A stretch of 64,000 nucleotides of DNA from Phycisphaerae bacterium (GTDB lineage: Bacteria; Planctomycetota; Phycisphaerae; UBA1845), in NCBI GenBank assembly GCA_022072505.1, contig JAJVHU010000022.1:87603-151602 (forward strand), read 5' to 3'. Position numbers and translations under genes: made by a program. The notes under the pieces are model-generated. The model was not told the origin of the DNA, ran no database searches, and saw only the letters and a list, made by a program, of their open reading frames with translations. Each line of letters starts with the position of its first letter. Positions within the stretch are counted from its first letter, which is position 1. Positions 1,270-31,979 of the stretch are shown piece by piece.

Positions 1270-1590
1270 CTATTCAATCTCGATCTGATAGCTGACGACC
1301 CACGGTTCCAACTGCTCCAGGCGGACCTTCCAACGGTCCTTGTATTCTTTGACCCAGTTCCGGTTTTCATCAGAATCGGGGACGTCGACGACCACGCGGA
1401 CAAGGTCATCGCGGTAGGTGACGCTACCCTGACGCCAGTGCCCTTCGACTTTTTGTGTTTCGTAGCTTGCCGCCCCAAATCGCCCCACGATTTCGAGCAC
1501 GGCTTCGGCAAGCCACTCCGCCGGAACTTCCCTCCCGTCGTTAAACCGAAGTGGAAGCAGAACCTCGAACCGCCGCCAACTGCTGTTCTT
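1270..1590 (-). pseudogene. Small TA-like hypothetical protein lacking a start codon (AAG where ATG expected)
   Basis: Coherent frame NSSWRRFEVLLPLRFNDGREVPAEWLAEAVLEIV...VSYQIEIE*; no usable start; AAG at 1590-1588. Confidence 0.55.
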
Positions 1591-1762
1591 AGGTCGCTTT
1601 TCCCTTGACCAGGAACGTGATGTTCTCCCCCGCAAGCGCTTCCAACGCCGCTTCCGGAACCAGGTGCTCCCCGGACTGGGTGACACGTCCCGAGAATCGT
1701 CCGAGGAGGAAGCCCAGCGCTCGTTTCTCCGTGTCTCGATCAGGGAATGTTATGGTGACCAT
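1541..1762 (-). pseudogene. Small partner protein of the 1270 ORF, truncated by TAA at 1591-1589
   Basis: ATG 1762 with GGAGAGG upstream; MVTITFPDRDTEKRALGFLLGRF...VKGKAT*; frame continues EQQLAAVRGSASTSV* to 1541. Confidence 0.55.
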
Positions 1763-1842
1763 TGTTCGCCTTGCCTCTCCGGACATTCTCCACACCGCGT
1801 CTCGCAAGATCGTTTCGGACGTTTCCGGCCCGACCCGCGAAG

Positions 1843-1851
1843 ATTATACCA
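1843..1851 (-). promoter_or_regulatory. Extended -10 promoter element TGGTATAAT
   Basis: Perfect TGnTATAAT on minus strand, about 80 nt upstream of ATG 1762 and just downstream of a gcdH-end copy. Confidence 0.5.
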
Positions 1852-1870
1852 CGAGCGCCATGAGATTGCC

Positions 1871-2028
1871 TCAAAACGCCCCATGCCGCGTGATCTCCCG
1901 GCCCACGATGAGCCGGTGAATCGACTCCGTCCCTTCATACGTAATGACGCTCTCCAGGTTCAGCGCGTGGGGGATGGGGCAGCATTCGATGCTGATCCCC
2001 CCGCGTCGAGCAACTCCCGCGCGTCGCG
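1871..2028 (-). repeat. Copy of the last 53 codons of gcdH (8063-8221) with a 1-nt deletion
   Basis: Direct alignment; encodes ...[39 protein letters not shown]. Confidence 0.95.
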
Positions 2029-2039
2029 TTACAGGATCA

Positions 2040-2258
2040 TCAGGAGCTTGTCGGCGTCTTAAGCAAACTCCCGGCCACGTTCTGAACCTTTCTTATCGCC
2101 TCGCGATCGTAGACTCGTTCGCCGCACACGGGGCATTCGTAGAACTCGACGCCGGAAACCGAATAGGGTTCCCCGCATCGTTCGCCTTGTACGGTTTTCT
2201 TGACTGCGCGAATGCGCGAACTTCCGCAGGTCGGGCACTCTTTGATTTTGATCCTCAT
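2040..2258 (-). CDS. YgiT/MqsA-type zinc-finger antitoxin-like protein
   Basis: CPTCG ... [10 protein letters not shown] motif pair; lies downstream of a DUF4258-like gene. Confidence 0.75.
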
Positions 2259-2267
2259 GCTGTTTTT

Positions 2268-2579
2268 TCACTCGCTACGCTTCGAGGAAATCAGAAAGTA
2301 ATATACGTCGGCCTCCGCATGTCGGACAATCTTGCCCTTGGTGTAGATGGCCATCCCCCCAAGATTGGTGCCTTCGATGACATACAGGTATTCGCGCCGG
2401 TGAGTCCGGCGGGAACTCGTTGAGCGAAGTCGTTTATGAATCGCCACGGCGTTAACGATCGCTTCCACCACGTCCAGCTCGGTCAGGCCGTCGGCATCCA
2501 TCTCAAGCCGGGCCTTCTCGCTGAAAGCGTATCTTCCGGTCAGCACGAGTCGTTTGATTGTAACAAGTGTGTCGGCCAA
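2268..2579 (-). CDS. DUF4258-like (RelE-fold-type) putative toxin
   Basis: YAFSEKARLEMDADGLTELDVVEAI pattern and pairing with YgiT-type zinc finger; probable TTG start at 2579. Confidence 0.6.
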   Translation of the reverse strand: MADTLVTIKRLVLTGRYAFSEKARLEMDADGLTELDVVEAIVNAVAIHKRLRSTSSRRTHRREYLYVIEGTNLGGMAIYTKGKIVRHAEADVYYFLISSKRSE

Positions 2580-2614
2580 AGTCGCGTCCCCGCAAGCACA
2601 CGGTGCGCCGCGCT

Positions 2615-2750
2615 TCAAAACGCCCCATGCCCGGTAATCTCCCGGCCCACGATGAGCTGGTGGATCGACTCCGTTCCCTCATACGTGATCACGCTCTCCA
2701 GGTTCAGCGCATGCCGGACCGGGCGGCATTCGATGCTGATGCCGACGGCG
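2615..2750 (-). repeat. Copy of the last about 45 codons of gcdH
   Basis: Direct alignment; encodes [44 protein letters not shown]. Confidence 0.95.
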
Positions 2751-2940
2751 CGGATTCCGTCTGTTCCGCAGCGGATCGAGCTTCCCTAAGTTTTTCCGCG
2801 AGGATGAGCGCGAGTTCCGGGCATTTCTCGATCTCGGCCTGCACCCGTCGCTGACGGTCCTCAGGGTCGGCCTTGACCCGTTCGCTCCCGAGACGATCCC
2901 TGATGGCTCGAAGCGTGGCAACATAACTCTTCTCAGTCAT
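2704..2940 (-). CDS. Small hypothetical protein whose 3' end runs into the gcdH-end copy
   Basis: ATG behind GAGGG; helical charged sequence; last 15 or so codons read the gcdH copy out of frame. Confidence 0.4.
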
Positions 2941-3013
2941 CCCTCGATCACCCCCACCGGAGTGTCAGTAGCGATCGCAAACGCTATCCATCGGCAGGAT
3001 GCGCCCGCGCAAC

Positions 3014-3214
3014 TCACTTGGTTCGCGTATTTGGCGCGGGTTCCGGGGCTTGACCGTGATCCTCCTTGGCCCGGCGCAGGGCTTCCAGGAACCGAGCACT
3101 GCCCTCCTGGAAGAATTCGATCTCCTCCTGCGGCGTCATGCCTCGTACTCGACGGCGGATTTCCTCCTGTGCCTTTCGTTTCATGTCCACGCAATCAAAC
3201 GTCTTCGTCTTCAT
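3014..3214 (-). CDS. Small antitoxin-like hypothetical protein
   Basis: MKTKTFDCVDMKRKAQEEIRRRVRGMTPQEEIEFF; start overlaps end of PIN gene. Confidence 0.65.
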   Translation of the reverse strand: MKTKTFDCVDMKRKAQEEIRRRVRGMTPQEEIEFFQEGSARFLEALRRAKEDHGQAPEPAPNTRTK

Positions 3215-3668
3215 ATTCAATGACCTCCGCAGGGGAGCGGATCTCCACCGCCCGATATCCATGAAGCTGATTGACCGCATTATACATGCGGGCCTTGTCG
3301 ATATGAACGATGTGCCGGAAGTTCCAGCTTACGATCAGGTCGGCTCCGCCGACCACTGCGGAAGCCACATGAGCGGCGTCATCCGCGGATTTGACGCCCA
3401 GGATGCCCGCTTTGAGGTACGCATCGCGCAGGGCCATCACTTCCCGTGTAAAGGCAACAAACGTCATCAAATGCAATTGTTGATCGAAAAAACCGCGAAC
3501 GTGGTCAGGCGCCCGTTCGATCTCCCGACGAAGCACGTCGGAGACCAGCAACCGGAACCGTCCGCCACCCGCCAGATTGAAGAATGATCGACTCGCCTCC
3601 GAAAACTCCTCGTCGAAGACGCCTCCATAAACGGAAGTATCGGCATAAGTCACAAGCCCCAGCTTCAC
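3195..3668 (-). CDS. PIN-domain (VapC-like) ribonuclease
   Basis: YADTSV ... E ... DDAAHVASA ... IVSWNFRH acidic PIN motifs. Confidence 0.8.
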   Translation of the reverse strand: MKLGLVTYADTSVYGGVFDEEFSEASRSFFNLAGGGRFRLLVSDVLRREIERAPDHVRGFFDQQLHLMTFVAFTREVMALRDAYLKAGILGVKSADDAAHVASAVVGGADLIVSWNFRHIVHIDKARMYNAVNQLHGYRAVEIRSPAEVIEYEDEDV

Positions 3669-3906: not shown

Positions 3907-4581
3907 TCACCACTCGTAGCCTTGGTCCTCCGCGATCGCATACAAAGTTATCATGCCGATGAGCAGCATGGTGACGCGGTTGTATCCCGACGCATCACCT
4001 GATTGCCGAGCCTCGTTTTGCTGTTTCGCGAGTTCACCCAGGAAAGGCATGGCCGGCAGAGCTTCTTCATATCTCTTGTTCCACTCCGCAGTCGTACCAC
4101 CTGTTTCTGCTACCACGAGAGAGGTAAATCGTTCGATGAACGAGCGCGAGTCGATCCGGCTAAAAAACTCTCGCAATTCCATTTTCGGTTTCTCCCGCAT
4201 TTGGGTTCTTGCCCAGGACGTAAACGACTCTTTGTTAAGATTCCCCTCCGCAAGCCGCCTGATCATAGGCTCGGCTTCGTCAGGCGTGGCGTCGAACGCC
4301 CAGCCGTTGTCGGCGAGGAAGGCGATCATCGCCGCCGTCGCCGCGCGCTTGTTACCGTCCACGAAAGGATGATTCATGCAGACGTGGAACGCGTACGCCG
4401 CCGCCATGGCCTGAATGTCCGGGTGGAGGTATGCGCCGGCGAATTGCTGTCTGGGCATGGCCATCGCCGACTCCAATCCCCCACGATCGCGAATGGATGG
4501 GTTACCCCCCTGATCTTCGATGGCAATGGCGTGGAGCGCCAGAATATCCTCGATGGCCAGGAAGCGCGGGCCGGCGTTCAC
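3907..4581 (-). CDS. Fic/Doc (death-on-curing) family toxin with C-terminal extension
   Basis: Fic motif HPFVDGNKRAA; N-terminal IRDRGGLESAMAMP typical of Doc. Confidence 0.85.
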   Translation of the reverse strand: MNAGPRFLAIEDILALHAIAIEDQGGNPSIRDRGGLESAMAMPRQQFAGAYLHPDIQAMAAAYAFHVCMNHPFVDGNKRAATAAMIAFLADNGWAFDATPDEAEPMIRRLAEGNLNKESFTSWARTQMREKPKMELREFFSRIDSRSFIERFTSLVVAETGGTTAEWNKRYEEALPAMPFLGELAKQQNEARQSGDASGYNRVTMLLIGMITLYAIAEDQGYEW

Positions 4582-4790
4582 TTGGCGAGCCTTCGCATCA
4601 ATTCGCCGTGCTTTCCGAACACTTCACGCACATGCCGATCCAGACGCGCGGAATCGCAACCCGGCAGGAGCCGAGCATGGAGGTATCGGATGTAGGCTGA
4701 AAGCGACAGGTTCAGTTTGGCGGCCTCAGTTTCGAGTTGACGCCGAAGCTCCGGCGTCGCCTGGAACTGGATGGTTTCCGTGGTGGACAT
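4578..4790 (-). CDS. Ribbon-helix-helix-type antitoxin
   Basis: IQFQATPELRRQLETEAAKLNLSLSAYI; 4-nt overlap with Doc gene. Confidence 0.65.
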   Translation of the reverse strand: MSTTETIQFQATPELRRQLETEAAKLNLSLSAYIRYLHARLLPGCDSARLDRHVREVFGKHGELMRRLAK

Positions 4791-5110: not shown

Positions 5111-5884
5111 TCAAAGCCATGGCATGCGGGTCTTGTCCAAGCTTCCATCGTCTCGGATGAAATCCGCGTGGTTTATGCAAATGCTAGCTTTATGGCCATC
5201 ACCGCCAGCTTCATACACGAAGCCACAGACATTCCAATCCTGTTGCCCGCTCTTCTGATAGAATGCCATGCAACCACTCATTCCGCTTAGAGAACCGAAG
5301 TCCGCCAAATGAGGGTTCGCTTTCCGAATGCGACGTTCGAGTTGCTCGTCGACGAGCATTACCTGACGGTCTGAAACGCTGGACACGAAATCACAGATCG
5401 CGGTCAGTCGACACTCAAGTCCCCTTTTCGAGACTTCTCGGTGCAATTCCGGAAATCCGACGAGAAACACGATGTCTCCCTTGCTTGGACGAGGTGGCGG
5501 CCAGCCGCCAGGCCGATAGAAGTGCTTTCCCCCTTTCTCGATTCTCTCGATGAAATGAGTATCCGGGAATTCGAGGACCGCCAAGTCGACGCCCAATTCC
5601 CTGACGACACAAGCCGACGAAATATCGAGCGGTCGCTGCTCCGACCCACATGTCACCGCTAGAATTGCGGCTGGGTTGTTCCGCCGCTCGTGTTCAAAGG
5701 CATCGATGACGTGGGAGTTTGTAATCAGCAGCTTTTTCACGCCCGTGTGAAGAAACGAAATCGTGCCATTCCGCAGCGCGCTTTCCGCCCCTTCCTTGTT
5801 GCGAAGGATAAGGGCCATGCCAACATACGGGCTGAATAGCGATATCCCCTTCTCCATTTTGGACATAAACTGATTGTCGTCCAC
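5111..5884 (-). CDS. Stand-alone trypsin-like serine protease
   Basis: Triad motifs in order: LITNSHV (His), VDLAVL (Asp), GMSGC (Ser). Probable GTG start at 5884 behind AAGGA. Confidence 0.6.
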   Translation of the reverse strand: MDDNQFMSKMEKGISLFSPYVGMALILRNKEGAESALRNGTISFLHTGVKKLLITNSHVIDAFEHERRNNPAAILAVTCGSEQRPLDISSACVVRELGVDLAVLEFPDTHFIERIEKGGKHFYRPGGWPPPRPSKGDIVFLVGFPELHREVSKRGLECRLTAICDFVSSVSDRQVMLVDEQLERRIRKANPHLADFGSLSGMSGCMAFYQKSGQQDWNVCGFVYEAGGDGHKASICINHADFIRDDGSLDKTRMPWL

Positions 5885-5889
5885 GATTG

Positions 5890-6102
5890 TTATTCCTTGA
5901 CCATTCGTCGGTTCTCGATCGACCGAACGATGTCGTCCAAGGTCAGAGGGTCGAGCCACTGATGCCGTTCCGCCGTGTAGTCACCGCGCCCGGGGTCGAA
6001 CATCCGCAGGAACCGGATCATGCCGGCCGGGCCCAGTCGTTCGTTCAGGGCCTCCAGTCCGGCGCGACGGACTTCGGGGTCGGATAGAACTGGATGGGTC
6101 AT
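5890..6102 (-). CDS. Small antitoxin-like protein
   Basis: EVRRAGLEALNERLGPAGMIRFLRMFDPGRGDYTAERHQWL; ATGA overlap with PIN pseudogene stop. Confidence 0.7.
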   Translation of the reverse strand: MTHPVLSDPEVRRAGLEALNERLGPAGMIRFLRMFDPGRGDYTAERHQWLDPLTLDDIVRSIENRRMVKE

Positions 6103-6523
6103 AATCCAATCACCTCTGTTATCCATTGAACTGGATTCTCAACGCGAACGGACAGTTTACCTCTCATGCGCTTGGCCAACTTCAGCAGAGAATCATCCGT
6201 GGTCAGGAAAACCTCGCAGGCCGAATTCTCGGAACACGCAACATGGAGCGCGTCCATCGGCCCGAACCCATCGGCGACGAGCTTTCCGGCGCGTTTCACG
6301 ATCGAATCCGACAATGTCGCGTTTTCATCGGCCAGCGGAGTAAAGCCAAGACCTTGCTTCGTCGCTCCTCGTCCGGGTTCGCATTGATTTCCCGCAGCAC
6401 GGCGTCACTGACAATCCAGATGAGTTTCCCTTTCTGCGCGAGACGAAAGATCGACTCAACGGCATCGCTTTCCACGCGAATTCGTTCCTACGACTGATCG
6501 TCGAAGGGTCGGCTCAGGCAGCA
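6099..6523 (-). pseudogene. PIN-domain toxin pseudogene
   Basis: CCLSRPFDDQS*ERIRVE...DALHVAC...FLTTDD; no start, in-frame TAG at 6490-6488, frameshift near 6340. Confidence 0.8.
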
Positions 6524-6571
6524 CGGATCGGGCAGCATTCGATGCTGATCCCGCCGGCGCCGAGCAGGTCG
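6524..6571 (-). repeat. 48-bp internal fragment of the gcdH 3' region
   Basis: Matches about 8163-8210 with one silent change (GGC to GGG). Confidence 0.9.
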
Positions 6572-6592: not shown

Positions 6593-7468
6593 TCAGATGC
6601 GGTCACTCCGCGGGTACACCAGGTTCATCGATCGGTTCAGGTCCGGATGCTCATCGAGAATCCGCCCGGTTACGTATTTGATCCAAGTTCCAAGAACGAA
6701 TCGCCGTTCCTTGTTCCACGAGTGCTGAATCGCAACAAGTCGAACCTGCTTCGGCGACCAGCCGCCAAGGGCAGAGGACTTCGGGTCGGCGATTCGCCAA
6801 ATCCCACAACCGCTTACACCGTGGATTCTGGGCAAGCGCACGCCAGTACCGCTTTTGATTTCAACCCCATCCTGAGTAAAGTTCAGCGCGACGTGCACGT
6901 TGGGATCGAAGATAGAATCAACTTGAAAACTCCCTTCATAAGGGGTCGAGAAATAAGCCAAGGGCTTCTCCGCGACACCGGTCGGGCAACCGGTCGTCCA
7001 TGCCCGCGGATAGCCCACGATCATGTACCAACCTTGACCGTCGTCGTTGTGACCAACCCGGTCATGACGAAGAAATGCCTTCGTGGCCTTGAGGTGCTCG
7101 ACGGTCTCGAGGTCCAACTCGATGGCGCAGATATCGCGTGCTGATCGCTTGGAAGCCTCGGTGCCACGAAACCAGCACTCGGGCCCGCACAAGGGGACTG
7201 GCAATGAGTCGAGTTCGCCCCTCGAGACGTAGAGAGGAATCTGAGCATTGATTGCGTCTGCGAAAGTACGTCCGTCGTCTCCGACGTGGGAAGCCGTTAG
7301 GATGAAGTGGCGATCAGCAATGGCGTACAGCACGCCACTGCGATCGTGTCTGACTTGATCATCCTGAACGGTCCAGATGCCAACCGTATGTCGTTCGATG
7401 CCGGGAAGGCACTCGGTTTCAATCTTCTTGATAAAAGCGGTCATTCGTGGAAATGTTTCTTGTGACAT
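6593..7468 (-). CDS. Stand-alone trypsin-like serine protease
   Basis: ILTASHV (His), RDICAIEL (Asp), GVSGCGIW (Ser); ATG 7468. Confidence 0.6.
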   Translation of the reverse strand: MSQETFPRMTAFIKKIETECLPGIERHTVGIWTVQDDQVRHDRSGVLYAIADRHFILTASHVGDDGRTFADAINAQIPLYVSRGELDSLPVPLCGPECWFRGTEASKRSARDICAIELDLETVEHLKATKAFLRHDRVGHNDDGQGWYMIVGYPRAWTTGCPTGVAEKPLAYFSTPYEGSFQVDSIFDPNVHVALNFTQDGVEIKSGTGVRLPRIHGVSGCGIWRIADPKSSALGGWSPKQVRLVAIQHSWNKERRFVLGTWIKYVTGRILDEHPDLNRSMNLVYPRSDRI

Positions 7469-7505
7469 CCTTGACTCTTCAGAACTTCGAGAATTGGACC
7501 GCAAT

Positions 7506-7757
7506 TCATCCGATCTCCGTCAACCGCTCCTTCAACCATCGCTGCACAAGCCTCTGCGGCGTCGTGCGTCGTCGCTTGGCTTCCAACAGCACGCGACGCC
7601 ACACAGCGCTGCCGAGTTCGATCACTCCGTTCTCGGGTCGCACGAACACTGTTGAGGTGTCCTCTTCCAGTTCGTCCAGGAACTCTGTCACCTCGTGCCC
7701 GTCCCAGAAAGCGGCCTCTTCGGCTTCGGATTTGAACTTTGGGATTTTGGATTTCAT
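7506..7757 (-). CDS. brnA: BrnA/CopG-family antitoxin
   Basis: IPKFKSEAEEAAFWDGH motif; ATGA overlap with brnT. Confidence 0.7.
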   Translation of the reverse strand: MKSKIPKFKSEAEEAAFWDGHEVTEFLDELEEDTSTVFVRPENGVIELGSAVWRRVLLEAKRRRTTPQRLVQRWLKERLTEIG

Positions 7758-8032
7758 CGTTGTGTACTCCGCCTTCGGTAATATCGCTTTTCCTTGTCGG
7801 TCATATTCCGGGCCGTAATGCACCGCGCTAGTCCGTGGGCTTTGAATCGCAGAACGACGACAAGATGCCGCCCGGCGTGCGTCTGTCCAAGTGCAACGTG
7901 AGATCCCTGCCGGGATCGCACGAGCATCGGGCGCGCGAAACAAACTTCCTCCACCTCCTCGGGTGAAACGCCGTGCCGGGCGATGTGCTCCTCATTATGC
8001 TCATCCCATTCAAGGCGACGTATTCTACGCAC
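7754..8032 (-). CDS. brnT: BrnT-family ribonuclease toxin
   Basis: EWDEHNEEHIARHGVSPEEVEE ... GQTHAGRHLVVV ... ITARNM. Confidence 0.85.
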   Translation of the reverse strand: MRRIRRLEWDEHNEEHIARHGVSPEEVEEVCFARPMLVRSRQGSHVALGQTHAGRHLVVVLRFKAHGLARCITARNMTDKEKRYYRRRSTQR

Positions 8033-8062
8033 GATTGGCCTCGTTCATCCAGAAGCGGGTTC

Positions 8063-9226
8063 TCAAAACGCCCCATGCCCGGTAATTTCCCGCCCCACGA
8101 TAAGCTGGTGAATCGACTCCGTGCCCTCATACGTGATCACGCTCTCCAGGTTCAGCGCGTGGCGGATCGGGCAGCATTCGATGCTGATGCCGCCGGCGCC
8201 GAGCAGGTCGCGGGCGTCGCGGGCGACGTCGAGGCCCATGCGGACGCAGTGCCACTTCGCCAGCGACACCTGCGAATGGTGCATCGTGCCGGCGTCCTTG
8301 AGTCTGCCAAGTTGCAGGCACAGGAACTGCGACGTGGTGATCTGCCGCACCATGTCCGCCAGGCGCACCTGGATGAGCTGCTTGCGGTCCAGCGTCGTCC
8401 CGAACAGCACGCGCTGCCTGGCGAACTCGAGGCACTCGCGGTAGCAGGCCATCGCCGCGCCGATGCCGCCCCACGCGATGCCGTACCGCGCCTGCGTCAG
8501 GCACCCCAGCGGCGCGCCCAGCCCCTCCGCTTTCGGCAACCGGTTTGCATCCGGCACTTTCACATTGTCGAAGAACAGCTCGCTGGTGATCGAGGCGCGC
8601 AGCGAGAACTTGTGCGGGATGTCGCGCGTGGTGTATCCCGGCATGCCCTTTTCCACGATGAATCCACGAATGCCGTCGTCCGTCGCCGCCCAGACGATCG
8701 CCAGGTCCGCCAGCGAACCGTTGGTGATCCACATCTTCGCGCCGCTGATGACCCAGTCGCCGCCCTTTTTCACCGCCCGCGTCTTCATCGTGCCGGGGTC
8801 CGATCCGCCGTCCGGCTCCGTGAGTCCGAAGCAGCCGATCTTCCGCCCCTTGGCCATCTCGGGCAGGAAGCGCTCTTTCTGCTCCGGCGATCCGTAGGCG
8901 TGGATCGGATACATGCACAACCCGGACTGCACGGAGGCGAAGCTGCGCACGCCGCTGTCGCCGCGCTCCAGCTCCTGCATGATGAGTCCGTAGGCGACGT
9001 TGTTGAGGCCCGCGCAGCCGTAATCGGTGAACGTCGGTCCGAAGAGGCCCATCTCGGCCATCTCGGGCACGAGGTCCATCGGGAAGCGCTCCTTTTCGAA
9101 GCACTCGCCGATGATCGGCAGCACGCGCTCGTCCACCCAGCGGCCGACGGTGTCACGCACCTGGCGCTCGTCGTCGGTGAGGCAGGCGTTGAAGTCGAAC
9201 AAGTCCGGTTGTTTCGTATCAGGCAC
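8063..9226 (-). CDS. gcdH: Acyl-CoA dehydrogenase, glutaryl-CoA dehydrogenase-like
   Basis: GCFGLTEPDGGSDP, GAKMWITN, C-terminal TYEGTESIH; 387 aa. Confidence 0.85.
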   Translation of the reverse strand: MPDTKQPDLFDFNACLTDDERQVRDTVGRWVDERVLPIIGECFEKERFPMDLVPEMAEMGLFGPTFTDYGCAGLNNVAYGLIMQELERGDSGVRSFASVQSGLCMYPIHAYGSPEQKERFLPEMAKGRKIGCFGLTEPDGGSDPGTMKTRAVKKGGDWVISGAKMWITNGSLADLAIVWAATDDGIRGFIVEKGMPGYTTRDIPHKFSLRASITSELFFDNVKVPDANRLPKAEGLGAPLGCLTQARYGIAWGGIGAAMACYRECLEFARQRVLFGTTLDRKQLIQVRLADMVRQITTSQFLCLQLGRLKDAGTMHHSQVSLAKWHCVRMGLDVARDARDLLGAGGISIECCPIRHALNLESVITYEGTESIHQLIVGREITGHGAF

Positions 9227-22051: not shown

Positions 22052-22056
22052 GGAGA

Positions 22057-22161: not shown

Positions 22162-22261
22162 GGGAAAAAACCTTGGCAGAAGTCTGCGTGCTGTTTCTTG
22201 ACGGTGTGCATTGCAGGAGTCACGGGGCGAAAGCGAACTTCGGGCCGGTGGGAGGGTAGAC

Positions 22262-23023: not shown

Positions 23024-23142
23024 CCACTGCCACCACCATCCCGCCCGAACCGTCTACATTCGCCCCGGAGGAACCCGGCGGCGATTTGTGGACGCCGCAC
23101 TTGGGCCCGTGGTGCCCGGCGACGCATACCGCCCCGCCCCGG
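23020..23142 (+). repeat. Abandoned copy of the first about 40 codons of nuoD
   Basis: MTTATTIPPEPSTFAPEEPGGDLWTPHLGP vs MTTATYNPPEPSTFAPEEPGGDLWTLNFGP at 23573. Confidence 0.95.
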
Positions 23143-23229
23143 GTGCATGGTCGCGGCGTGGAGAGTGTCATTCCGCGTCGCGGGAATAGCGTAACACAGT
23201 TGGTTCAGGCGTATCGGAGTTGAGTCGCG

Positions 23230-23427
23230 ATGATCGCGTACAAGACCATTGCCACACTCTCGAAAGACCATTCCGTCACGCTCGAAGCGTTGCCGTTCTC
23301 GGCGGGTGAACAGGTGGAGGTCATTCTTCTTGCGAGAACACCCGGCAACGGCGAGCCGACCTTCCCGCTGCGTGGTCGGCCTGTGAAATATGTGAACCCG
23401 ACAGACCCTGTCGGGGAAAAGGATTGA
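23230..23427 (+). CDS. Small antitoxin-like protein, possibly C-terminally truncated
   Basis: VTLEALPFSAGEQVEVILL...PLRGRPVKY..PTDPV pattern. Confidence 0.6.
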   Translation: MIAYKTIATLSKDHSVTLEALPFSAGEQVEVILLARTPGNGEPTFPLRGRPVKYVNPTDPVGEKD

Positions 23428-23572: not shown

Positions 23573-24832
23573 ATGACCACCGCAACCTACAATCCACCTG
23601 AACCGTCCACGTTCGCTCCGGAAGAACCCGGCGGCGATTTGTGGACGCTGAACTTCGGGCCGCAGCATCCGGCGACGCATACCACCCTGCGCCTCGTGCT
23701 GGAGCTTGACGGCGAACGCGTGCTGCGCGCCACGCCGCACATCGGGTATCTGCACAGCGGGTTCGAGAAGCTCGGGGAGCACCTGAACTACAATCAGTAT
23801 GTGGTCGTCACGGACCGCATGAACTACGTCTCGCCGATGGCCAACAATCTCGCGTGGCATCACGCGTGCGAAAGACTTTTCGACATCGAGATCACGCCGC
23901 GGTGCAAGGTGATCCGAACGATCTGCGCGGAGCTGGCGCGGATTCAGGACCATCTGCTCTGCGTCGGCGCTGCGGCGCTCGACCTCGGCGCGCTGACGGC
24001 GTTTCTGTACGGCTTCAACGAGCGCGAGATGATCTACGACCTGTTCGAGGAGATCTGCGGGGCGCGGTTCACGGTCAGCTACACGCGCGTCGGCGGGCTT
24101 ATGCAGGACATTCCGGCGGAGTGGCCCGCGCATGTGAAGGCGTTCTGCAAACATTTGCCGACAGCGATCGCCGATCTGGAATCGCTGCTGAACCGCAATC
24201 GCATTTTCATCGAGCGCACGAAGGGCGTGGGCGTGATCGGGCGCGAGGACGCGATCAACTGGGGTCTGACGGGTCCGCTCGCGCGTTCCGCCGGCGTGCG
24301 CCGCGACCTTCGCAAGGATGAGCCGTACCTGTGCTACGCGGCCGACTGGGACGGCAAGGGTTCGTCGGGCGTGGAGTTCAAGGTGCCGATCGCGACGGGC
24401 GGCGACGTGCTCGCGCGATACCTGGTGCGCCTGGAGGAGATCAAGCAGTCGCTGTCCATCCTTGCGCAACTGGTGGACAACATTCCGCCGGGTCCGATCA
24501 ATGTGCTGCCCGACGACAAGAAGGCGCTGCCGGACAAGCGCGAAGTGTACTTCAGCATCGAGGGCCTGATCCACCACTTCGAGACGATCATGACCAACCG
24601 GGGCTTCACGCCGCCTGTGGGCGAGGCATACGGTTGCCAGGAAACCGCCAACGGCGAACTGGGTTTCTACCTGGTCAGCGACGGCGGCAACTGCGCGTAT
24701 CGCGCGAGATGCCGCCCGCCGAGCTTCATCAATTACCAGTGCTTTCCGAAGCTCGTGGAAGGGCACCAGATCAGCGACGTGGTGGCGATCCTCGGGTCGC
24801 TGAATATCATCGCGGCGGAGTTGGACCGGTGA
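23573..24832 (+). CDS. nuoD: NADH-quinone oxidoreductase subunit D
   Basis: NFGPQHPATH, GYLHSGFEK, DRMNY, C-terminal ELDR. Confidence 0.97.
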   Translation: MTTATYNPPEPSTFAPEEPGGDLWTLNFGPQHPATHTTLRLVLELDGERVLRATPHIGYLHSGFEKLGEHLNYNQYVVVTDRMNYVSPMANNLAWHHACERLFDIEITPRCKVIRTICAELARIQDHLLCVGAAALDLGALTAFLYGFNEREMIYDLFEEICGARFTVSYTRVGGLMQDIPAEWPAHVKAFCKHLPTAIADLESLLNRNRIFIERTKGVGVIGREDAINWGLTGPLARSAGVRRDLRKDEPYLCYAADWDGKGSSGVEFKVPIATGGDVLARYLVRLEEIKQSLSILAQLVDNIPPGPINVLPDDKKALPDKREVYFSIEGLIHHFETIMTNRGFTPPVGEAYGCQETANGELGFYLVSDGGNCAYRARCRPPSFINYQCFPKLVEGHQISDVVAILGSLNIIAAELDR

Positions 24833-28299: not shown

Positions 28300-29607
28300 A
28301 TGGCGAATTACGAACCCATCCTGCTGCGCAATCGCGGCGTCGAGGGCTCGCGCACGCTCGGCGTGTACGAGTTGCGCGGCGGGTATCAGGCGGTGCGCAA
28401 GGCGCTGAAGATGACGCCGGAGGAGGTCGTCGAGGAGGTCAAGAAGGCGAACCTTCGCGGGCGCGGCGGGGCGGGGTTCCCCGCGGGGATGAAGTGGAGC
28501 TTTCTGCCCAAGGACCGCAAGACGACGTACCTGTGCGTGAACGGCGACGAGAGCGAACCGCCGACGTTTTCCAACCGCGTGCTGATGGAGCACGATCCGC
28601 ACCAACTCATCGAGGGCGTCATCATTGCCGCCTACGCCGTGCAGGCGCAGGTGGCGTACATCTACCTCCGCGTCGAGTTTCACGAGCCGTTTCACGTTCT
28701 CCAGCGCGCCGTGGATGAGGCGTATGCGAAAGGCTATCTCGGCAGGAAAGTTTTCGGCAGCGATTTCAACGTCGAGGTGTATCTGCACCGCGGGGCGGGC
28801 GCCTACGTGTGCGGCGAGGAGACCGGGCTGATCGAGTCGCTCGAGGGCAAGCGCGGCTGGCCTCGCATCAAGCCGCCGTTTCCCGCGATCGAGGGCCTGT
28901 TCCGCAAGCCGACCATCGTCAACAACGTCGAGACGCTGTGCAACGTTCCGCACATCATCGAGCGCGGGGCGGCGTGGTTCACGTCCGTCGGTCCGTCGCA
29001 CAGCACGGGTCCGAAGCTCTTCTGCATCAGCGGACCGGTGAACAAACCCGGCTGCTACGAGTGGTCGATGGACCTTTCGGTGCAGGAGTTGATCGAGGAT
29101 CCGCGCTTTGGCGGCGGGATGCGCGACGGAAAGAAGGTCAAGTGCGTGCTGCCCGGCGGGATCTCGATGGGGGCGCTCTGTGCGTCCGAACTGCACATGA
29201 AGATGGACTTCGAGGATCCGCGGAAGTTCGGGCTGCTCGGTCTGGGCACAGCCGCGGCGGTCGTGCTGGACGAGAGCATCGACATCCGCATCGTTCTGCG
29301 GAACCTCGCGCGGTTCTACGCGATGGAGTCGTGCGGGCAGTGTACGCAGTGCCGCGAGGGGACAAGCTGGATGCACAAGATCGCCGACCGCATCGCCCGT
29401 GGCGCGGGACGGTTGGAGGATCTGGATCTGATCCTTCAGACCGCGCGCAACATGGGCATGATGCCGGGGTTGTCGATCTGCGGATTGCCCGATGGGGCGA
29501 CGTATCCGATCGAGACGGTGGTGAAGAAGTTCAGGGGGGAGTTGGAGGAGCGGATCAGGGCGCAGCCCCGCGAGGAAGTCGGGCAGACGCTCGCGGTGGT
29601 GAACTGA
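28300..29607 (+). CDS. nuoF: NADH-quinone oxidoreductase subunit F
   Basis: LRGRGGAGFP, GDESEP, GAGAYVCGEET, ESCGQCTQCREG. Confidence 0.97.
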   Translation: MANYEPILLRNRGVEGSRTLGVYELRGGYQAVRKALKMTPEEVVEEVKKANLRGRGGAGFPAGMKWSFLPKDRKTTYLCVNGDESEPPTFSNRVLMEHDPHQLIEGVIIAAYAVQAQVAYIYLRVEFHEPFHVLQRAVDEAYAKGYLGRKVFGSDFNVEVYLHRGAGAYVCGEETGLIESLEGKRGWPRIKPPFPAIEGLFRKPTIVNNVETLCNVPHIIERGAAWFTSVGPSHSTGPKLFCISGPVNKPGCYEWSMDLSVQELIEDPRFGGGMRDGKKVKCVLPGGISMGALCASELHMKMDFEDPRKFGLLGLGTAAAVVLDESIDIRIVLRNLARFYAMESCGQCTQCREGTSWMHKIADRIARGAGRLEDLDLILQTARNMGMMPGLSICGLPDGATYPIETVVKKFRGELEERIRAQPREEVGQTLAVVN

Positions 29608-29618
29608 GGACAAACTCG

Positions 29619-29843
29619 ATGACGGTGATCAACGGACATTTTGACGGAAGGAATGTCGTTTTGGATGAACCCGTGCCGCCCGGGATTCCGCCGCTGACGC
29701 CTGTAAAGGTCATGTTCGAGCCGGTTGGCGGCGCGCAGAACATCGTTGCGGAACTTGCGGAACTGGCTGTTTCCACTGATGAACTGCCCGAGGACTACTC
29801 CGAGCAACATGAACATTATGTGAAAGGGACTCCCCGTCGATGA
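29619..29843 (+). CDS. Antitoxin (paralogue of 31339)
   Basis: INGHFDG..VVLDEP ... LPEDYSEQHEHY; ATGA overlap with VapC. Confidence 0.75.
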   Translation: MTVINGHFDGRNVVLDEPVPPGIPPLTPVKVMFEPVGGAQNIVAELAELAVSTDELPEDYSEQHEHYVKGTPRR

Positions 29844-30256
29844 GGACGGCTTTTGTCGACACCTCGTTTCTTATTGCCTGTGTGCTGGTGAAGGATGTCT
29901 GGCACGCCCGCGCCATCGCCTGGCAACGGCGGACGGTGGGGCGGCTGGTGACGACAGAGTACGTATTGATGGAATTTGTGGACGCGCTATCGCAGCCGCC
30001 TGTTCGTCGCTCCGCTCTCGCTGCCGTCGGGCTTCTTCGACGCCAGCCGGCTGTGGGGGTTCTTACGGCCTCGACCGCGCTGATGGACGAAGGACTTGCT
30101 CTCTATGCGCAATCCGCGGACAAGGCGTGGAGTCTGACGGATTGCATTTCGTTTTCCGTGATGCGTCGAGAGGGTCTAAGCGACGCGCTGACGAGCGACC
30201 GGCATTTTGAGCAAGCCGGGTTTCGAGCCTTGCTGCGTATTGACGCGCCGGCATGA
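29840..30256 (+). CDS. vapC: VapC/PIN toxin
   Basis: FVDTS, E, SLTDCISF, ALTSDRHFEQAGF. Confidence 0.9.
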   Translation: MRTAFVDTSFLIACVLVKDVWHARAIAWQRRTVGRLVTTEYVLMEFVDALSQPPVRRSALAAVGLLRRQPAVGVLTASTALMDEGLALYAQSADKAWSLTDCISFSVMRREGLSDALTSDRHFEQAGFRALLRIDAPA

Positions 30257-30440
30257 TCCGGCGATTCGCACGCGCGGCAGAGGCTGGCTGGAGGATCTGG
30301 CGCTGAATCTTCAGACCGCGCGCAACATGGGCATGATGCCGGGGTTGTCGATCTGCGGGCTGCCCGATGGAGCGACGTATCCGATCGAGACGGTGGTGAA
30401 GAAGTTCAGGGGGGAGTTGGAGGAGCGGATTCGGGCGCAG
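30257..30440 (+). repeat. nuoF 3'-end copy A
   Basis: 30309-30440 aligns gap-free to 29434-29565 (44 codons). Confidence 0.97.
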
Positions 30441-30486
30441 GCGCCGGAGGGGGCAGGGATGGCGCTGGCGGGGGGGGGCTTAATGC

Positions 30487-30945
30487 ATGCACTGCTTTGA
30501 GCATTCAGGCGAGTCCGCGATCGGTGTATGCATGGTGTGCGGTCGCGGATTATGTCGGAAGTGCGCGGTTGAGACGGGCAGTCTGTTGGCGTGTCGGCAA
30601 AAATGCGAGATCATCGCCACGAGAATCAGCGACCTGCGGGAGTTCCAGAGCAACCAGCCGCTGCTCCAGGAGCGCTTGATCTCGCATGCGCGCAGGACGC
30701 GGATGGCGTCCGGCGTGTTCATGACGGCCGTCGGCGTCCTGCTCGTGATTCTGGGATTGAAGTTCGGGCAATGGGCCTTTGCGGGTCCGGGGGCCGGAAT
30801 CATGCTGGTCTACGGTGCTGTGACGTTGATCATGGAGTATCGAAGAAACAGCAAGACCTCCAACTTCCGCCTGTGCCGGCGCTGCGGTTACAACCTCACG
30901 GGGACTTCGAGCGATCGGTGTCCAGAGTGCGGAGCGAAGACGTAG
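30487..30945 (+). CDS. Two-TM membrane protein with N-terminal B-box-like and C-terminal zinc-ribbon motifs
   Basis: CFEH...CMVCGRGLCRKC; CRRCGYNL...CPECG. Confidence 0.65.
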   Translation: MHCFEHSGESAIGVCMVCGRGLCRKCAVETGSLLACRQKCEIIATRISDLREFQSNQPLLQERLISHARRTRMASGVFMTAVGVLLVILGLKFGQWAFAGPGAGIMLVYGAVTLIMEYRRNSKTSNFRLCRRCGYNLTGTSSDRCPECGAKT

Positions 30946-30980
30946 CATGATGGGGGCCATCGAGGTGTCCGTGAATGGAT

Positions 30981-31052
30981 GCGCCGACCGCGGATCGCCG
31001 TTTCGAGCAGGCATGCTTGCGAGCCTTGCTGCGTATTGACGTGCCGGCATGA
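30981..31052 (+). pseudogene. 3' remnant of a third VapC
   Basis: APTADRRFEQACLRALLRIDVPA*; last part near-identical to 30224-30256. Confidence 0.75.
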
Positions 31053-31278
31053 TCCGGCGATTCGCACGCGCGGCAGAGGCTGGCTGGAGGATCTGGCGCT
31101 GAATCTTCAGACCGCGCGGAACATGGGCATGATGCCGAGGTTGTCGATCTGCGGACTGCCCGATGGGGCGACGTATCCGATCGAGACGGTGGTGAAGAAG
31201 TTTCGCGGCGAGTTGGAGGAGCGGATCAGGGCGCAGCCCCGCGAGGAAGTCGGGCAGACGCTCGCGGTGGTGAACTGA
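31053..31278 (+). repeat. nuoF 3'-end copy B including stop codon
   Basis: 31105-31278 aligns gap-free to 29434-29607 (58 codons). Confidence 0.97.
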
Positions 31279-31338
31279 GCAGGAAATGCGGGAGAGCGGA
31301 TGGCGAAGGTCGTGTCTGAGGTCAGCCAGGAGGGCAAA

Positions 31339-31560
31339 ATGGAAGTCTTGAACGGTCATTATGACGGCAAACAAGTAGTGATTGATGAGCCGGTTCCGGG
31401 GGATATCCTGCCGGACACACCTGTCAAAATCGTTTTCGAACGTCGTACGAACGAGACCGCATTGGACCGGCTCGCACGCCTTGCAGGACCAGGCCACGGA
31501 TTGCCTCGCGACTACGCCGAGCAACATGAGCATTACATCAAAGGAACGCCGCGAAAGTGA
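31339..31560 (+). CDS. Antitoxin (paralogue of 29619)
   Basis: LNGHYDG..VVIDEP ... LPRDYAEQHEHY. Confidence 0.75.
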   Translation: MEVLNGHYDGKQVVIDEPVPGDILPDTPVKIVFERRTNETALDRLARLAGPGHGLPRDYAEQHEHYIKGTPRK

Positions 31561-31979
31561 ACGCGACCTTCCTCGACACCTCTTACCTGCTCGCGATCGT
31601 CAACCAGGAGGATGAGTTGCATGCGCGCGCGCTTGCCTGGAAGAACCGCATTCGGGGCCGATTGTTGACGACGGACTTCGTTCTCCTGGAGTTCGTGGAC
31701 GCGCTCTGTAGACCGGCGCTTCGTCATCGCGCGATGGATGTGGTCGTGGTGCTGAGGGCGGACGCTGACATCACGATTCTCCCCTTGTCGACGACTTTGA
31801 TGGACGAAGGCCTGTCCCTCTTTGGCGCCCATCACGACAAGCATTGGAGCTTAACGGATTGCATTTCATTCCACGTGATGAAGCGCGAGCAGATCACGGA
31901 GGCGCTGACCGCGGATCGTCATTTCGAGCAGGCCGGCTTTCGGGCCCTGCTCCGCAGCGATCCGCCGTCCGGTTCTTAG
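31557..31979 (+). CDS. vapC: VapC/PIN toxin
   Basis: FLDTS, SLTDCISF, ALTADRHFEQAGF. Confidence 0.9.
   Translation: MNATFLDTSYLLAIVNQEDELHARALAWKNRIRGRLLTTDFVLLEFVDALCRPALRHRAMDVVVVLRADADITILPLSTTLMDEGLSLFGAHHDKHWSLTDCISFHVMKREQITEALTADRHFEQAGFRALLRSDPPSGS

What the first reader, a model, noticed from the sequence alone, without database searches (positions are those of the whole stretch)
1270..31979. Candidate system: cassette accretion at housekeeping gene termini, leaving a trail of swapped gene ends (three loci, no integrase)
Seen: at gcdH (3'), nuoD (5') and nuoF (3') small TA/defence-like cassettes sit between an intact gene terminus and one to four partial copies of that same terminus (50-200 bp), always in direct orientation and co-oriented with the host gene. 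No integrase, transposase, RT or attC is adjacent. Inference: this is the product expected if small circles carrying [gene end + cassette] integrate by single crossover into the homologous gene end, repairing the gene and pushing the old end and older cassettes outward, giving an integron/CRISPR-like chronological array in which essential gene termini act as attachment sites. I do not recognise a named system with this layout.
Basis: partly seen in the sequence, partly recalled or inferred. Interest (0 to 1): 0.92.

Follow-up and report, generated by a model that had tools for sequence, protein, structure and literature searches.

The report
Gene-end copies flanking stacked toxin-antitoxin cassettes
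In this planctomycete genome, small toxin-antitoxin and defence-like gene cassettes are stacked at the ends of about two dozen housekeeping genes, each tier marked by a leftover copy of the gene's end that was once a working allele; this points to cassettes spreading by ordinary homologous recombination anchored on conserved gene ends, without a recombinase of their own.

Summary
gcdH has three displaced 3'-end copies, nuoD one 5' copy and nuoF two 3' copies. All are direct, lie outward of the gene and bracket toxin-antitoxin (TA) or defence-like cassettes.

Genome-wide, 42 such copies sit at 26 termini of 23 mostly housekeeping genes. 3' ends are copied only downstream and 5' ends only upstream. 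Mid-gene segments are never copied. 20 of 32 3' copies end within 2 nt of the stop codon.

The copies are not decayed fresh duplicates. 63% of their differences from the live end fall on third codon positions, pN/pS is 0.21, and 7 copies carry a different stop codon. They were working alleles.

Same-genus genomes differ tier by tier. The closest relative has nuoF-ZnR (a zinc-ribbon membrane gene) exactly as in the window's displaced copy A plus ZnR. The live nuoF carries a different tail, so that gene end was swapped.

I found no integrase, tRNA or shared junction motif.

Best reading (0.55): modules of gene end plus cassette are exchanged and stacked among relatives by homology-anchored recombination with one novel joint. 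Circles and a strict chronological order are not shown.

Nearest in print is "insertion with long target duplication", described for restriction-modification systems. I class this as a new variant of that kind.

The parts
8063..9226 (-). gcdH (acyl-CoA dehydrogenase), intact anchor gene. Its last ~160 nt (8062-8221) are the repeated unit H.
   Evidence: Pfam Acyl-CoA_dh_N/M/1; orthologues at 88-94% aa identity in same-genus genomes.
7506..8032 (-). Tier 1 cassette: BrnT toxin (7754-8032) and BrnA/CopG antitoxin (7506-7757), directly after the gcdH stop.
   Evidence: Pfam PF04365 and PF12441. The same gcdH-BrnTA junction is present in G001 at 82% nt identity.
6593..7504 (-). 303-aa trypsin-like protein (no Pfam hit). 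A homologue lies in the G003 gcdH array.
   Evidence: tblastn 59% aa identity in L103, followed there by a 150-nt gcdH-end copy.
6524..6571 (-). Displaced gcdH fragment: 48 nt, 98% identical, an internal piece of H without the stop.
5890..6314 (-). PIN C-terminal fragment (6099-6314) plus a small partner ORF (5890-6126).
   Evidence: Pfam PIN, weak. The full pair is conserved after a gcdH-end copy in G001.
5111..5959 (-). Second trypsin-like protein (282 aa).
   Evidence: Pfam Trypsin_2, weak.
3907..4790 (-). RHH antitoxin-like ORF (4578-4790) plus Fic/Doc toxin (3907-4581).
   Evidence: Pfam PF02661, E 3.5e-18.
2704..3668 (-). PIN_3 protein (3195-3668) with small ORFs (3014-3280, 2704-2940).
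   Evidence: Pfam PF13470, below cut-off.
2615..2754 (-). Displaced gcdH 3' end: 140 nt, 92% identical, in-frame TGA kept. Homology stops at the stop codon.
   Evidence: Differences by codon position are 3/1/7.
2040..2618 (-). Cassette: 116-aa ORF (2268-2618) plus an MqsA/zinc-ribbon antitoxin-like ORF (2040-2258).
   Evidence: Pfam, weak.
1870..2028 (-). Displaced gcdH 3' end: 160 nt, 87% identical, TGA kept.
1270..1807 (-). Outermost cassette (ORFs 1589-1807 and 1270-1686, no Pfam hit). In G002 its homologue follows the live gcdH directly.
   Evidence: 83% aa identity.
23020..23146 (+). Displaced nuoD 5' end: 127 nt, 80% identical, begins at the ATG.
23230..23427 (+). 65-aa ORF between the displaced and live nuoD starts (no family hit).
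23573..24832 (+). nuoD, intact anchor gene.
   Evidence: Pfam Complex1_49kDa.
28300..29607 (+). nuoF, intact anchor gene. Its last 90 nt are only 72% identical to the closest relative, against ~91% for the gene body.
   Evidence: Pfam Complex1_51K; window identity scan.
29619..30256 (+). VapB1 (29619-29843) and VapC1 PIN toxin (29840-30256). Absent from G004 and G002.
   Evidence: Pfam PIN.
30197..30474 (+). Junction J (the VapC1 stop abuts nuoF-derived sequence) plus displaced nuoF end copy A (30286-30474). Copy A has a tail at the same position, and the same ZnR junction, as the relative's live nuoF tail (tail sequence diverged; only the junction plus ZnR are 88% alike), with the stop lost.
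30487..30945 (+). ZnR: 152-aa zinc-ribbon membrane protein. It follows the live nuoF directly in G004 and G002.
30977..31279 (+). 57-nt VapC 3' remnant, a second copy of junction J, and displaced nuoF end copy B (31082-31279). The tail and stop of copy B are identical to the live gene.
31300..31979 (+). VapB2 (31300-31560) and VapC2 (31557-31979). This pair is a paralogue of VapBC1 (65% nt identity). Its homologue lies downstream of nuoF, after a ~595-nt spacer and before nuoG, in another genus (L003).
   Evidence: VapC2 itself was not scanned against Pfam; the PIN assignment rests on paralogy to VapC1.

Best explanation
The arrays are products of homology-anchored cassette accretion.

A small addiction or defence cassette sits immediately after the stop (or before the start) of a conserved gene. 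It is transferred between related genomes together with the adjoining 50-200 nt of that gene.

RecA-type recombination uses the conserved gene end as the homologous anchor. The other side is closed by a novel joint. That joint is either pre-formed in a circular [gene end + cassette] molecule (Campbell-type single crossover) or made by illegitimate joining of a linear fragment (homology-facilitated illegitimate recombination, HFIR).

Because the incoming piece carries a complete gene end, the host gene stays intact and the other end copy is left as a direct repeat. Repeated events, together with unequal crossing-over, gene conversion and deletion between the repeats, stack and reshuffle tiers.

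Toxin-antitoxin cargo is enriched because post-segregational killing opposes loss of a cassette by repeat-mediated deletion.

Shown here: the layout, its genome-wide polarity, the allelic (once functional) nature of the displaced ends, mosaic ends, tier-by-tier polymorphism among congeners, and the lack of a recombinase gene or common site.

Inferred, not shown: the transfer vehicle, the role of RecA, whether the intermediate is circular or linear, and the addiction argument.
For: (1) Polarity and precision.
- 32 outward direct 3' copies against 1 inverted and 1 inward; 10 against 2 for 5' ends; 0 for mid-gene segments.
- 20 of 32 3' copies end within 2 nt of the stop codon.
- This is what is expected if only fragments carrying a complete gene end can integrate without killing the gene.

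(2) Displaced ends were working alleles.
- Differences by codon position are 63/55/198. That is p = 2e-9 against the at most 46% third-position share expected for in-situ duplication plus decay.
- pN/pS is 0.21, p = 5e-14 against 0.5.
- Of 26 copies reaching the stop, 10 keep the same stop, 7 have another stop codon (four are TAG/TGA swaps needing two changes) and 9 have a sense codon.

(3) A direct end swap at nuoF.
- The closest relatives G004 and G002 have nuoF-ZnR-MT.
- In the window, copy A plus ZnR is collinear with that junction at 88%.
- The live nuoF tail is 72% identical to G004 against ~91% for the gene body, and equals copy B over ~60 nt.
- The live end is a mosaic: A-like in the middle, B-like in the tail.

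(4) The same logic holds at gcdH. G002 has the live gcdH followed by the cassette that in the window follows displaced copy 1870.

(5) Arrays differ among the five same-genus genomes. They are absent at nuoF and fba in the nearest relative, and other genera have uninterrupted nuoC-D-E and nuoF-G.

(6) Identical joints recur. The VapC-stop/nuoF junction occurs in two tiers, as expected if the joint travels with the module or is amplified by repeat recombination.

(7) There is no sign of a dedicated mobility system.
- No cassette has a high-identity paralogue elsewhere in the genome.
- No k-mer is shared at the junctions.
- No recombinase domains or tRNA were found.

(8) DNA-uptake genes ComEC and DprA are present. 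This is weak evidence, because these genes are common.
Against: - No circle, empty-site variant or other credible excision joint was seen in the arrays. The one joint reported (30105 to 30342, skipping 236 nt, in X1 and X3) rests on a 20-nt anchor and was set aside. Only Logan contigs could be laid, and these hide rare forms.
- The nearest homologues of VapC1 in other genomes are mostly not next to nuoF. 7 of 52 are bracketed by near-identical repeats of other local sequence. So cassettes of this family do reach new sites, which pure homology cannot explain, and some duplications look fresh.
- Ku is absent, so end-joining circularisation of linear fragments is unlikely.
- Some cassettes in the same operon have no flanking repeat at all, for example the Asp protease between nuoB and nuoC.
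- The order of tiers is not chronological by identity.
- fba and gcdH live ends show no clear drop in identity to the nearest relative.
Confidence: 0.55

Rival explanations
1. In-situ 'insertion with long target duplication'. An unknown break-repair or trans-acting process inserts each cassette at an ORF boundary and duplicates 50-200 nt of the resident target. The present divergence arose later, by decay of the outer copy and by ordinary allelic replacement of the live gene.
For: - The phenomenon is documented for restriction-modification units, with repeats often spanning start or stop codons (PMC2853133).
- VapBC homologues in other phyla are bracketed by 95-100% identical repeats of unrelated local sequence, for example L150, where the last 61 nt of a 254-codon ORF including its stop are repeated.
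- Copy 2615 of gcdH is closest to the genome's own live end (93%).
- Cassette edges are tight against ORF ends: 12 of 39 against an 11% null.
Against: - The third-position bias, pN/pS of 0.21 and stop-to-stop changes are not produced by decay of a fresh duplicate. This model therefore needs a second recombination event at nearly every array.
- The live nuoF tail is not a copy of the displaced resident tail.
- Identity does not fall with distance from the gene.
Confidence: 0.28
2. Decayed integrase-borne islands. Elements that target gene ends with a site-specific recombinase and carry a replacement end integrated in tandem, as at tRNA genes or prfC. The recombinase genes were later lost.
For: Tandem accretion with partial target copies is well known at tRNA and tmRNA genes (established knowledge). 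Each displaced copy restores or replaces a gene end.
Against: - No recombinase domain was found in any scanned ORF of the three arrays or between them.
- Tiers are as small as ~0.43-0.9 kb.
- At least 23 different genes serve as targets, with no shared junction motif.
- Repeat lengths vary from copy to copy.
Confidence: 0.05
3. Assembly artefact. Co-occurring strains with different cassettes after the same gene were chained into one contig through the shared gene end.
For: The genome is a short-read MAG. Unitigs break inside the identical cores of the repeats, and the 83-nt identical nuoF tail allows alternative paths.
Against: - The same architecture, including specific junctions, appears in independently assembled genomes of other species: G001 has gcdH-BrnTA-H', G003 has protease-H' and nuoF-cassette-H', and G061 has its own copy.
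- Unique segments have equal depth and shared nodes have twice that depth in four runs from two studies.
- Unitigs span copies 1870 and 6524 completely.
- The copies are 6-20% diverged.
Confidence: 0.04

Closest known systems
Insertion with long target duplication of restriction-modification gene units (Nobusato et al. 2000, not read here; Furuta, Abe & Kobayashi 2010, PMC2853133)
   Same: A small gene unit with no transposase or integrase, bracketed by long (30-420 bp) direct repeats of variable length made of local sequence. The repeats often span a start or stop codon, so the neighbouring gene stays whole. An empty site exists in a related genome. A repeat-driven life cycle has been hypothesised.
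   Different: - In print this covers single tiers and restriction-modification cargo. Here there are up to four tiers per gene end at about 23 genes in one genome, and the cargo is mostly toxin-antitoxin pairs.
- The repeats here are diverged alleles with a coding-constraint signature and mosaic tracts, not near-identical target copies. This argues for imported or swapped ends rather than duplication of the resident target.
Homology-facilitated illegitimate recombination (HFIR) and Campbell-type integration during natural transformation (de Vries & Wackernagel 2002; recalled from my own knowledge, not read here)
   Same: One homologous anchor of about 100-200 bp suffices to bring in adjacent foreign DNA. 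The second joint is illegitimate or pre-formed. No element-encoded enzyme is required.
   Different: These are laboratory phenomena, usually giving insertion with deletion. A natural, genome-wide, stacked record of such events at gene termini has not, to my knowledge, been described.
Minimal mobile elements of Neisseria (Saunders & Snyder 2002; recalled from my own knowledge)
   Same: Alternative whole-gene cassettes sit between conserved genes in different strains and move by homologous recombination in the flanks, without their own recombinase.
   Different: Minimal mobile elements leave no duplicated gene ends and do not stack.
Integron cassette arrays
   Same: Ordered arrays of small, mostly promoter-less, co-oriented cassettes, rich in toxin-antitoxin pairs, next to a fixed entry point.
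   Different: No IntI, attI or attC. The 'site' is the end of whichever housekeeping gene is used. The order is not demonstrably chronological.
Tandem genomic islands at tRNA/tmRNA genes or at gene ends (for example SXT in prfC)
   Same: Each insertion brings a replacement for the gene end and leaves a partial copy as a direct repeat. Islands can stack.
   Different: Those need a tyrosine or serine integrase and a short conserved core site. Neither is present here.

Membership tests
Insertion with long target duplication (Nobusato/Furuta) | The inserted unit is bracketed by direct repeats longer than 30 bp made of the local target sequence. | tested here: met
   Repeats of 48-209 nt at 26 termini.
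Insertion with long target duplication (Nobusato/Furuta) | No transposase, integrase or other mobile-element gene in or beside the insert. | tested here: met
   Pfam scans of the array ORFs; no tRNA. Small ORFs without hits cannot be excluded.
Insertion with long target duplication (Nobusato/Furuta) | A related genome has the empty site, with the repeated sequence present once. | tested here: met
   G004/G002 nuoF and G004 fba carry a single gene end with no displaced copy, though another cassette or ~1.5 kb of unrelated sequence follows it. The truly empty nuoF-nuoG site is in L004/L006.
Insertion with long target duplication (Nobusato/Furuta) | The two repeats derive from duplication of the resident target, so they are near-identical at birth and the outer copy decays neutrally. 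| tested here: not met
   63% of differences fall on third codon positions; pN/pS is 0.21; 7 copies carry an alternative stop codon; the live nuoF tail is unlike the displaced resident tail. A few copies (96-100% identical) are too similar to judge.
Insertion with long target duplication (Nobusato/Furuta) | The cargo is a restriction-modification unit. | tested here: not met
   Cargo is BrnTA, VapBC/PIN, Fic, HicAB, ParE, Zeta-like, proteases and others. Only one array (contig C70) holds a DNA methylase.
Integron | An IntI tyrosine recombinase with attI next to the array. | tested here: not met
   No recombinase domain was found in the ORFs scanned between 1 and 37 kb. A whole-genome IntI search was not run because the genome search closed.
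Integron | Each cassette ends in an attC site (imperfect palindrome with conserved core). | tested here: not met
   No shared k-mer at 42 stop-side and 30 copy-side junctions. Tier boundaries are copies of the gene end. attC was judged only by this k-mer test; no search for imperfect palindromes was run.
Integrase-borne island at a gene end or tRNA | A site-specific recombinase gene inside the island and a short conserved core at both ends. | tested here: not met
   Same calls as above. Repeat length varies from copy to copy, and at least 23 unrelated genes are targets.
Homology-anchored (RecA-dependent) integration: Campbell or HFIR | [quoted passage not shown] | not testable with these tools
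   Only contigs of public runs could be laid. No credible excision joint was seen (one weak joint with a 20-nt anchor at 30105 to 30342 was set aside), which does not show absence.
Homology-anchored (RecA-dependent) integration: Campbell or HFIR | Hybrid (mosaic) repeat copies with a crossover point inside the anchor. | tested here: met
   The live nuoF end is A-like in the middle and B-like in the tail. Copy A is B-like in its 5' part, shares its middle with the live end, and has its own tail joined to ZnR as in G004. Gene conversion between copies would give the same picture.

The most novel reading that the evidence does not exclude
Conserved gene termini act as portable homology arms for a recombinase-free class of mobile cassettes. 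A [gene end + toxin-antitoxin/defence cassette] module loops out by recombination between the flanking gene-end repeats, passes to a relative, and re-enters by single crossover in the same gene. This repairs the gene and pushes the older end outward. Essential-gene ends would then work as attachment sites, and the arrays would be a readable record of past acquisitions: an integron-like system run entirely by host recombination. It could be a general route by which toxin-antitoxin pairs spread.
Probability: 0.3. Interest if true: 0.85.

Novelty: new variant of a known kind. Interest (0 to 1): 0.72.

Why it matters
How toxin-antitoxin pairs and small defence genes move when they lie outside plasmids, phages, transposons and integrons is an old open question.

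This genome offers an unusually dense natural record of such movement: 42 displaced gene ends at 23 genes, with sister genomes that differ tier by tier. The record shows that the bracketing repeats are former working alleles rather than fresh target duplications. That shifts the likely mechanism from an unknown 'transposition with long duplication' to host homologous recombination anchored on conserved gene ends.

This makes the question testable in two ways. One is long-read population data from the same bioreactors. The other is a simple transformation experiment in laboratory strains.

It also warns annotators that essential operons such as complex I can be interleaved with mobile passengers, and that short ORFs resembling gene ends are relics of this process.

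Tried and rejected
- Site-specific recombination: rejected. There are no shared k-mers at the junctions, no recombinase domains and no tRNA.
- Intragenomic transposition of cassettes: rejected. No cassette in a clean array has a paralogue of at least 78% identity elsewhere. Contigs C40 (an autotransporter-like paralogue family) and C16 (a dispersed repeat) were removed from the counts as confounders.
- Strict linkage between a cassette and its host gene across genomes: not found. Only 1 of 52 VapC1-homologue loci lies next to nuoF.
- Phylogeny of gcdH ends: too short to resolve. It shows only that the displaced copies belong to the genus clade.
- A 105-nt mismatch-free tract between G000 and G004 gcdH: set aside, because the region is conserved in all congeners.
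- Search for excision joints or circles in public runs: only Logan contigs were available and no credible joint was seen in the arrays. The one reported joint (30105 to 30342, 20-nt anchor) was discounted.
- Literature searches for toxin-antitoxin cassettes with gene-end duplications or in planctomycetes found nothing closer than the Kobayashi-laboratory papers.
- My crude ORF-based strand count for cargo orientation was uninformative, because antisense ORFs are common in 65% GC DNA.
- The genome search closed. Copy counts of other anchors across relatives and a genome-wide IntI search therefore could not be run.

Full report
**Source and setting.** The window is C7:87603-151602 of a 4.67-Mb, 70-contig, 65.7% GC metagenome-assembled genome. 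NuoF relatives place it in Phycisphaerae, Planctomycetota. The closest genomes are MAG_25 (G004 = L001, 94% aa identity) and SJ659 (G003 = L002, 89%).

**Checking the observation.** Self-BLASTN and alignments confirm the repeats.
- gcdH (8063-9226, minus strand; Pfam) has its last ~160 nt repeated downstream. The copies lie at 2615-2754 (92%), at 1870-2028 (87%) and, as a 48-nt internal piece, at 6524-6571 (98%).
- nuoD (23573-24832) has its first 127 nt repeated upstream at 23020-23146 (80%), starting at the ATG.
- nuoF (28300-29607) has its last ~190 nt repeated at 30286-30474 (copy A, 88%) and at 31082-31279 (copy B, 94%).
- In the full-length gcdH copies and in nuoF copy B, homology ends at the stop codon and unrelated sequence follows.

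*Cargo and neighbours.*
- The enclosed genes are co-oriented with the host gene. By Pfam they are BrnT/BrnA, Fic/Doc with a ribbon-helix-helix partner, several PIN proteins, an MqsA-like zinc ribbon, two trypsin-like proteins and a zinc-ribbon membrane protein (ZnR).
- The nuo genes are confirmed, with nuoG at 35674-37310.
- No ORF scanned has a recombinase, transposase or reverse-transcriptase domain. There is no tRNA.

**Genome-wide test.** I called 2292 confident ORFs by GC3. From the 1946 that were long enough I took the first, middle and last 210 nt and searched each within 12 kb of its own gene. I then removed hits lying inside other genes and segments with dispersed copies.
- 3' segments gave 32 copies at 18 genes, all downstream and direct. 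Controls gave 1 inverted and 1 upstream hit.
- 5' segments gave 10 copies at 8 genes, upstream and direct, against 2 downstream.
- Middle segments gave none.
- In total there are 42 displaced copies at 26 termini of 23 genes. 20 of the 32 3' copies end within 2 nt of the last base of the stop codon. The median length of the 3' copies is 136 nt.
- NCBIfam confirms ten anchors: argC, sucC, pepT, sat, mdh, an aldehyde dehydrogenase, thiC, class I fba, ispG and glyS. By eye the rest include carB and serA. ispG and two other genes have arrays at both ends.
- Cargo elsewhere includes HicAB, ParE, Fic, a Zeta-like kinase, PIN proteins, a DNA methylase and a deoxyribosyltransferase-like protein.

**Are the copies fresh duplicates or former alleles?** I compared 23 ungapped 3' copies with the live ends.
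- pS is 0.268 and pN is 0.057, a ratio of 0.21. In-situ duplication followed by neutral decay of one copy predicts at least 0.5 (binomial p = 5e-14).
- Counted simply by codon position, the differences are 63/55/198. That is 63% at the third position, against at most ~46% under that model (p = 2e-9).
- Of 26 copies that reach the stop, 10 keep the same stop codon, 7 have another stop codon (four of them TAG/TGA swaps that need two changes) and 9 have a sense codon.
- Identity does not decline with distance from the gene: nuoF 88 then 94; aldehyde dehydrogenase 83, 90, 88, 84; fba 96, 84, 86, 88. The exception is gcdH.

For most of their divergence the displaced ends therefore evolved as coding sequence. 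5' copies give a weaker signal (ratio 0.53). Part of the reason is that my start codons are uncertain.

**Relatives.** The arrays are polymorphic tier by tier among the five same-genus genomes.

*gcdH:*
- G001 has gcdH-BrnTA-H'(113 nt)-PIN/partner-H'(34 nt).
- G003 has gcdH-PIN-protease-H'(150 nt).
- G002 has gcdH followed directly by the homologue of the window's outermost cassette.
- In G004 the contig ends 321 nt after gcdH.

*nuoF:*
- G004 and G002 have nuoF-ZnR-methyltransferase.
- G003 has nuoF, a different 590-nt cassette, a 78-nt nuoF-end copy (94%) and then the methyltransferase.
- G001 has about 1 kb of other sequence between nuoF and the methyltransferase.
- L003, from another genus, has a VapBC2 homologue between nuoF and nuoG.
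- L004 and L006 have nuoF next to nuoG and an uninterrupted nuoC-D-E. These are empty sites.

*Wider surveys:*
- At fba, G004 has no displaced copy and only 1.5 kb between fba and the conserved downstream block. The window's genome has four tiers there.
- Across 76 family genomes that carry gcdH, extra C-terminal copies occur in G000, G001, G003, one genome of another genus (G061) and weakly in G033.
- For nuoF, among copies long enough to pass the search threshold, only G000 has arrayed extra copies (G055 has a partial copy on another contig), out of 91 genomes. G003's 78-nt copy falls below the threshold.

**The nuoF array in detail.**
- Copy A and the following ZnR gene are collinear at 88% with the live nuoF end plus ZnR of G004. 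Copy A's tail occupies the same position and keeps the same ZnR junction as G004's live tail, though the ~45-nt tail sequences themselves are diverged, and its stop is mutated.
- The live nuoF tail is a different allele. Its last 90 nt are 72% identical to G004, against ~91% for the gene body. It is identical to copy B over the last ~60 nt.
- The live end is A-like just upstream of that tail. Copy A is B-like in its first ~40 nt.
- The VapC1 stop codon abuts nuoF-derived sequence. The same joint, preceded by a 57-nt VapC remnant, heads copy B.

A consistent history is as follows.
1. The ancestor was nuoF(A tail)-ZnR.
2. A [B-type tail + VapBC + joint] module entered by recombination within the nuoF end.
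3. The distal tier (remnant-joint-B-VapBC2) is placed between ZnR and the methyltransferase. It looks like a linear fragment from a donor array that was anchored in the methyltransferase gene and joined illegitimately after ZnR.

So gene ends were swapped, but new tiers are not always added next to the gene.

**Mechanistic clues.**
- The junctions share no motif.
- No cassette in a clean array has a close paralogue elsewhere in the genome.
- Cassette edges are tight. A same-strand ORF ends within -5 to +15 nt of the displaced copy in 12 of 39 cases, against an 11% null.
- ComEC and two DprA genes are present and Ku is absent.
- Some passengers in the operon have no flanking repeat. The Asp-protease gene simply replaces the nuoB-nuoC spacer that G004 has.
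- Homologues of VapC1 in 52 other genomes are almost never next to nuoF. 7 of them are bracketed by 25-202-nt repeats of other local sequence. In L150 these are the last 61 nt of a 254-codon ORF ending exactly at its stop. Cassettes of this family therefore do reach new sites, by a step that homology alone cannot supply.

**Assembly check.**
- Logan unitigs from runs of two studies cover the arrays, breaking only in the shared repeat cores. Unique segments have even depth (11-14x in X1) and shared repeat nodes have twice that.
- Unitigs span copies 1870 and 6524 entirely.
- The k=31 graph alone cannot order the tiers that share identical cores, and no raw or long reads were available.
- Independent assemblies of sister species with the same kinds of junction argue against a chimera.

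**Comparison with the known.**
- The closest description in print is 'insertion with long target duplication' of restriction-modification units. There the repeats are 30-420 bp, often span start or stop codons, no mobile-element genes are present, and the mechanism is unknown (PMC2853133; a later review repeats this for restriction-modification systems only, PMC3874152).
- Earlier notes of this scan report single toxin-antitoxin cassettes with such repeats in other phyla, and one at argC in this same genome. I re-found the argC case independently.
- New here are the density and stacking of the arrays, the toxin-antitoxin cargo, the polar genome-wide statistics and, above all, the evidence that the repeats are former functional alleles with mosaic structure.
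- Integron and integrase-island membership fail on their defining features.

**Verdict.** I class it as a new variant of a known kind. My best mechanistic reading is homology-anchored exchange and stacking of [gene end + cassette] modules among related genomes, with confidence 0.55. The main rival, at 0.28, is in-situ long target duplication followed by allelic replacement. The genome search closed, which prevented further cross-genome copy counts.

Noticed in passing
window 20040-47900: The complex I operon is interleaved with passengers that have no flanking repeats. Examples are an Asp-protease-like gene (21045-21494) that exactly replaces the nuoB-nuoC spacer seen in G004, a ferritin-like gene (22211-22732), an NTP_transf_5 protein (24845-25444), a NERD/Mrr-like protein (25502-26050, absent in G004), and a methyltransferase plus carbamoyltransferase between nuoF and nuoG.
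   Followed up: partly
window 22042-22167: A 7-nt microsatellite (AGGCAAC/AGGGAAT units, ~18 copies) lies between nuoC and the ferritin-like gene.
   Followed up: no
window 9276-9448, 16576-16663, 41828-42170: A dispersed ~50-nt repeat containing CCGAGCCGCGCCCGTCAGGAAGCG. It is tandem (50-nt period) at 41828-42170 and occurs in both orientations. It is REP-like and may relate to the RAYT cassettes noted elsewhere in this genome.
   Followed up: no
window 9612-10871: Nine 120-nt tandem units inside a 746-aa TPR protein gene (9661-11901, minus strand). These are recently amplified TPR repeats, 83-92% identical.
   Followed up: no
G003:C7:303832-305103 (locus L103): gcdH of the sister genome G003 carries a ~108-nt in-frame insertion near residue 186. 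The reading frame is open across 430 aa.
   Followed up: no
G000 C9:108200-120200: ispG has arrays at both ends (three 5' copies, two 3' copies). The downstream tiers hold a 1064-aa predicted protein (not scanned; helicase/nuclease-like by eye only), a 596-aa unknown protein and a Zeta/AAA_33-like kinase. This makes it a larger defence-like island built the same way.
   Followed up: partly
G000 C70:2806-9000: The fba array (four displaced ends) contains an N6/N4 DNA methylase with a divergent HTH gene and an unknown 249-aa gene (possibly a restriction-modification unit), plus a 447-aa Fic protein. The whole array is absent from the nearest relative G004.
   Followed up: partly
G000 C27:24154-24493: A 121-nt, 100% identical duplication of the end of a 363-aa gene, separated by only 99 nt. 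It may be a very recent or empty tier.
   Followed up: no
window 26994-28265: A 423-aa protein with no Pfam hit lies between nuoE and nuoF. It is conserved at this position in G004 (91% aa) and weakly in L003 (38%), so it is an old resident of the operon.
   Followed up: no
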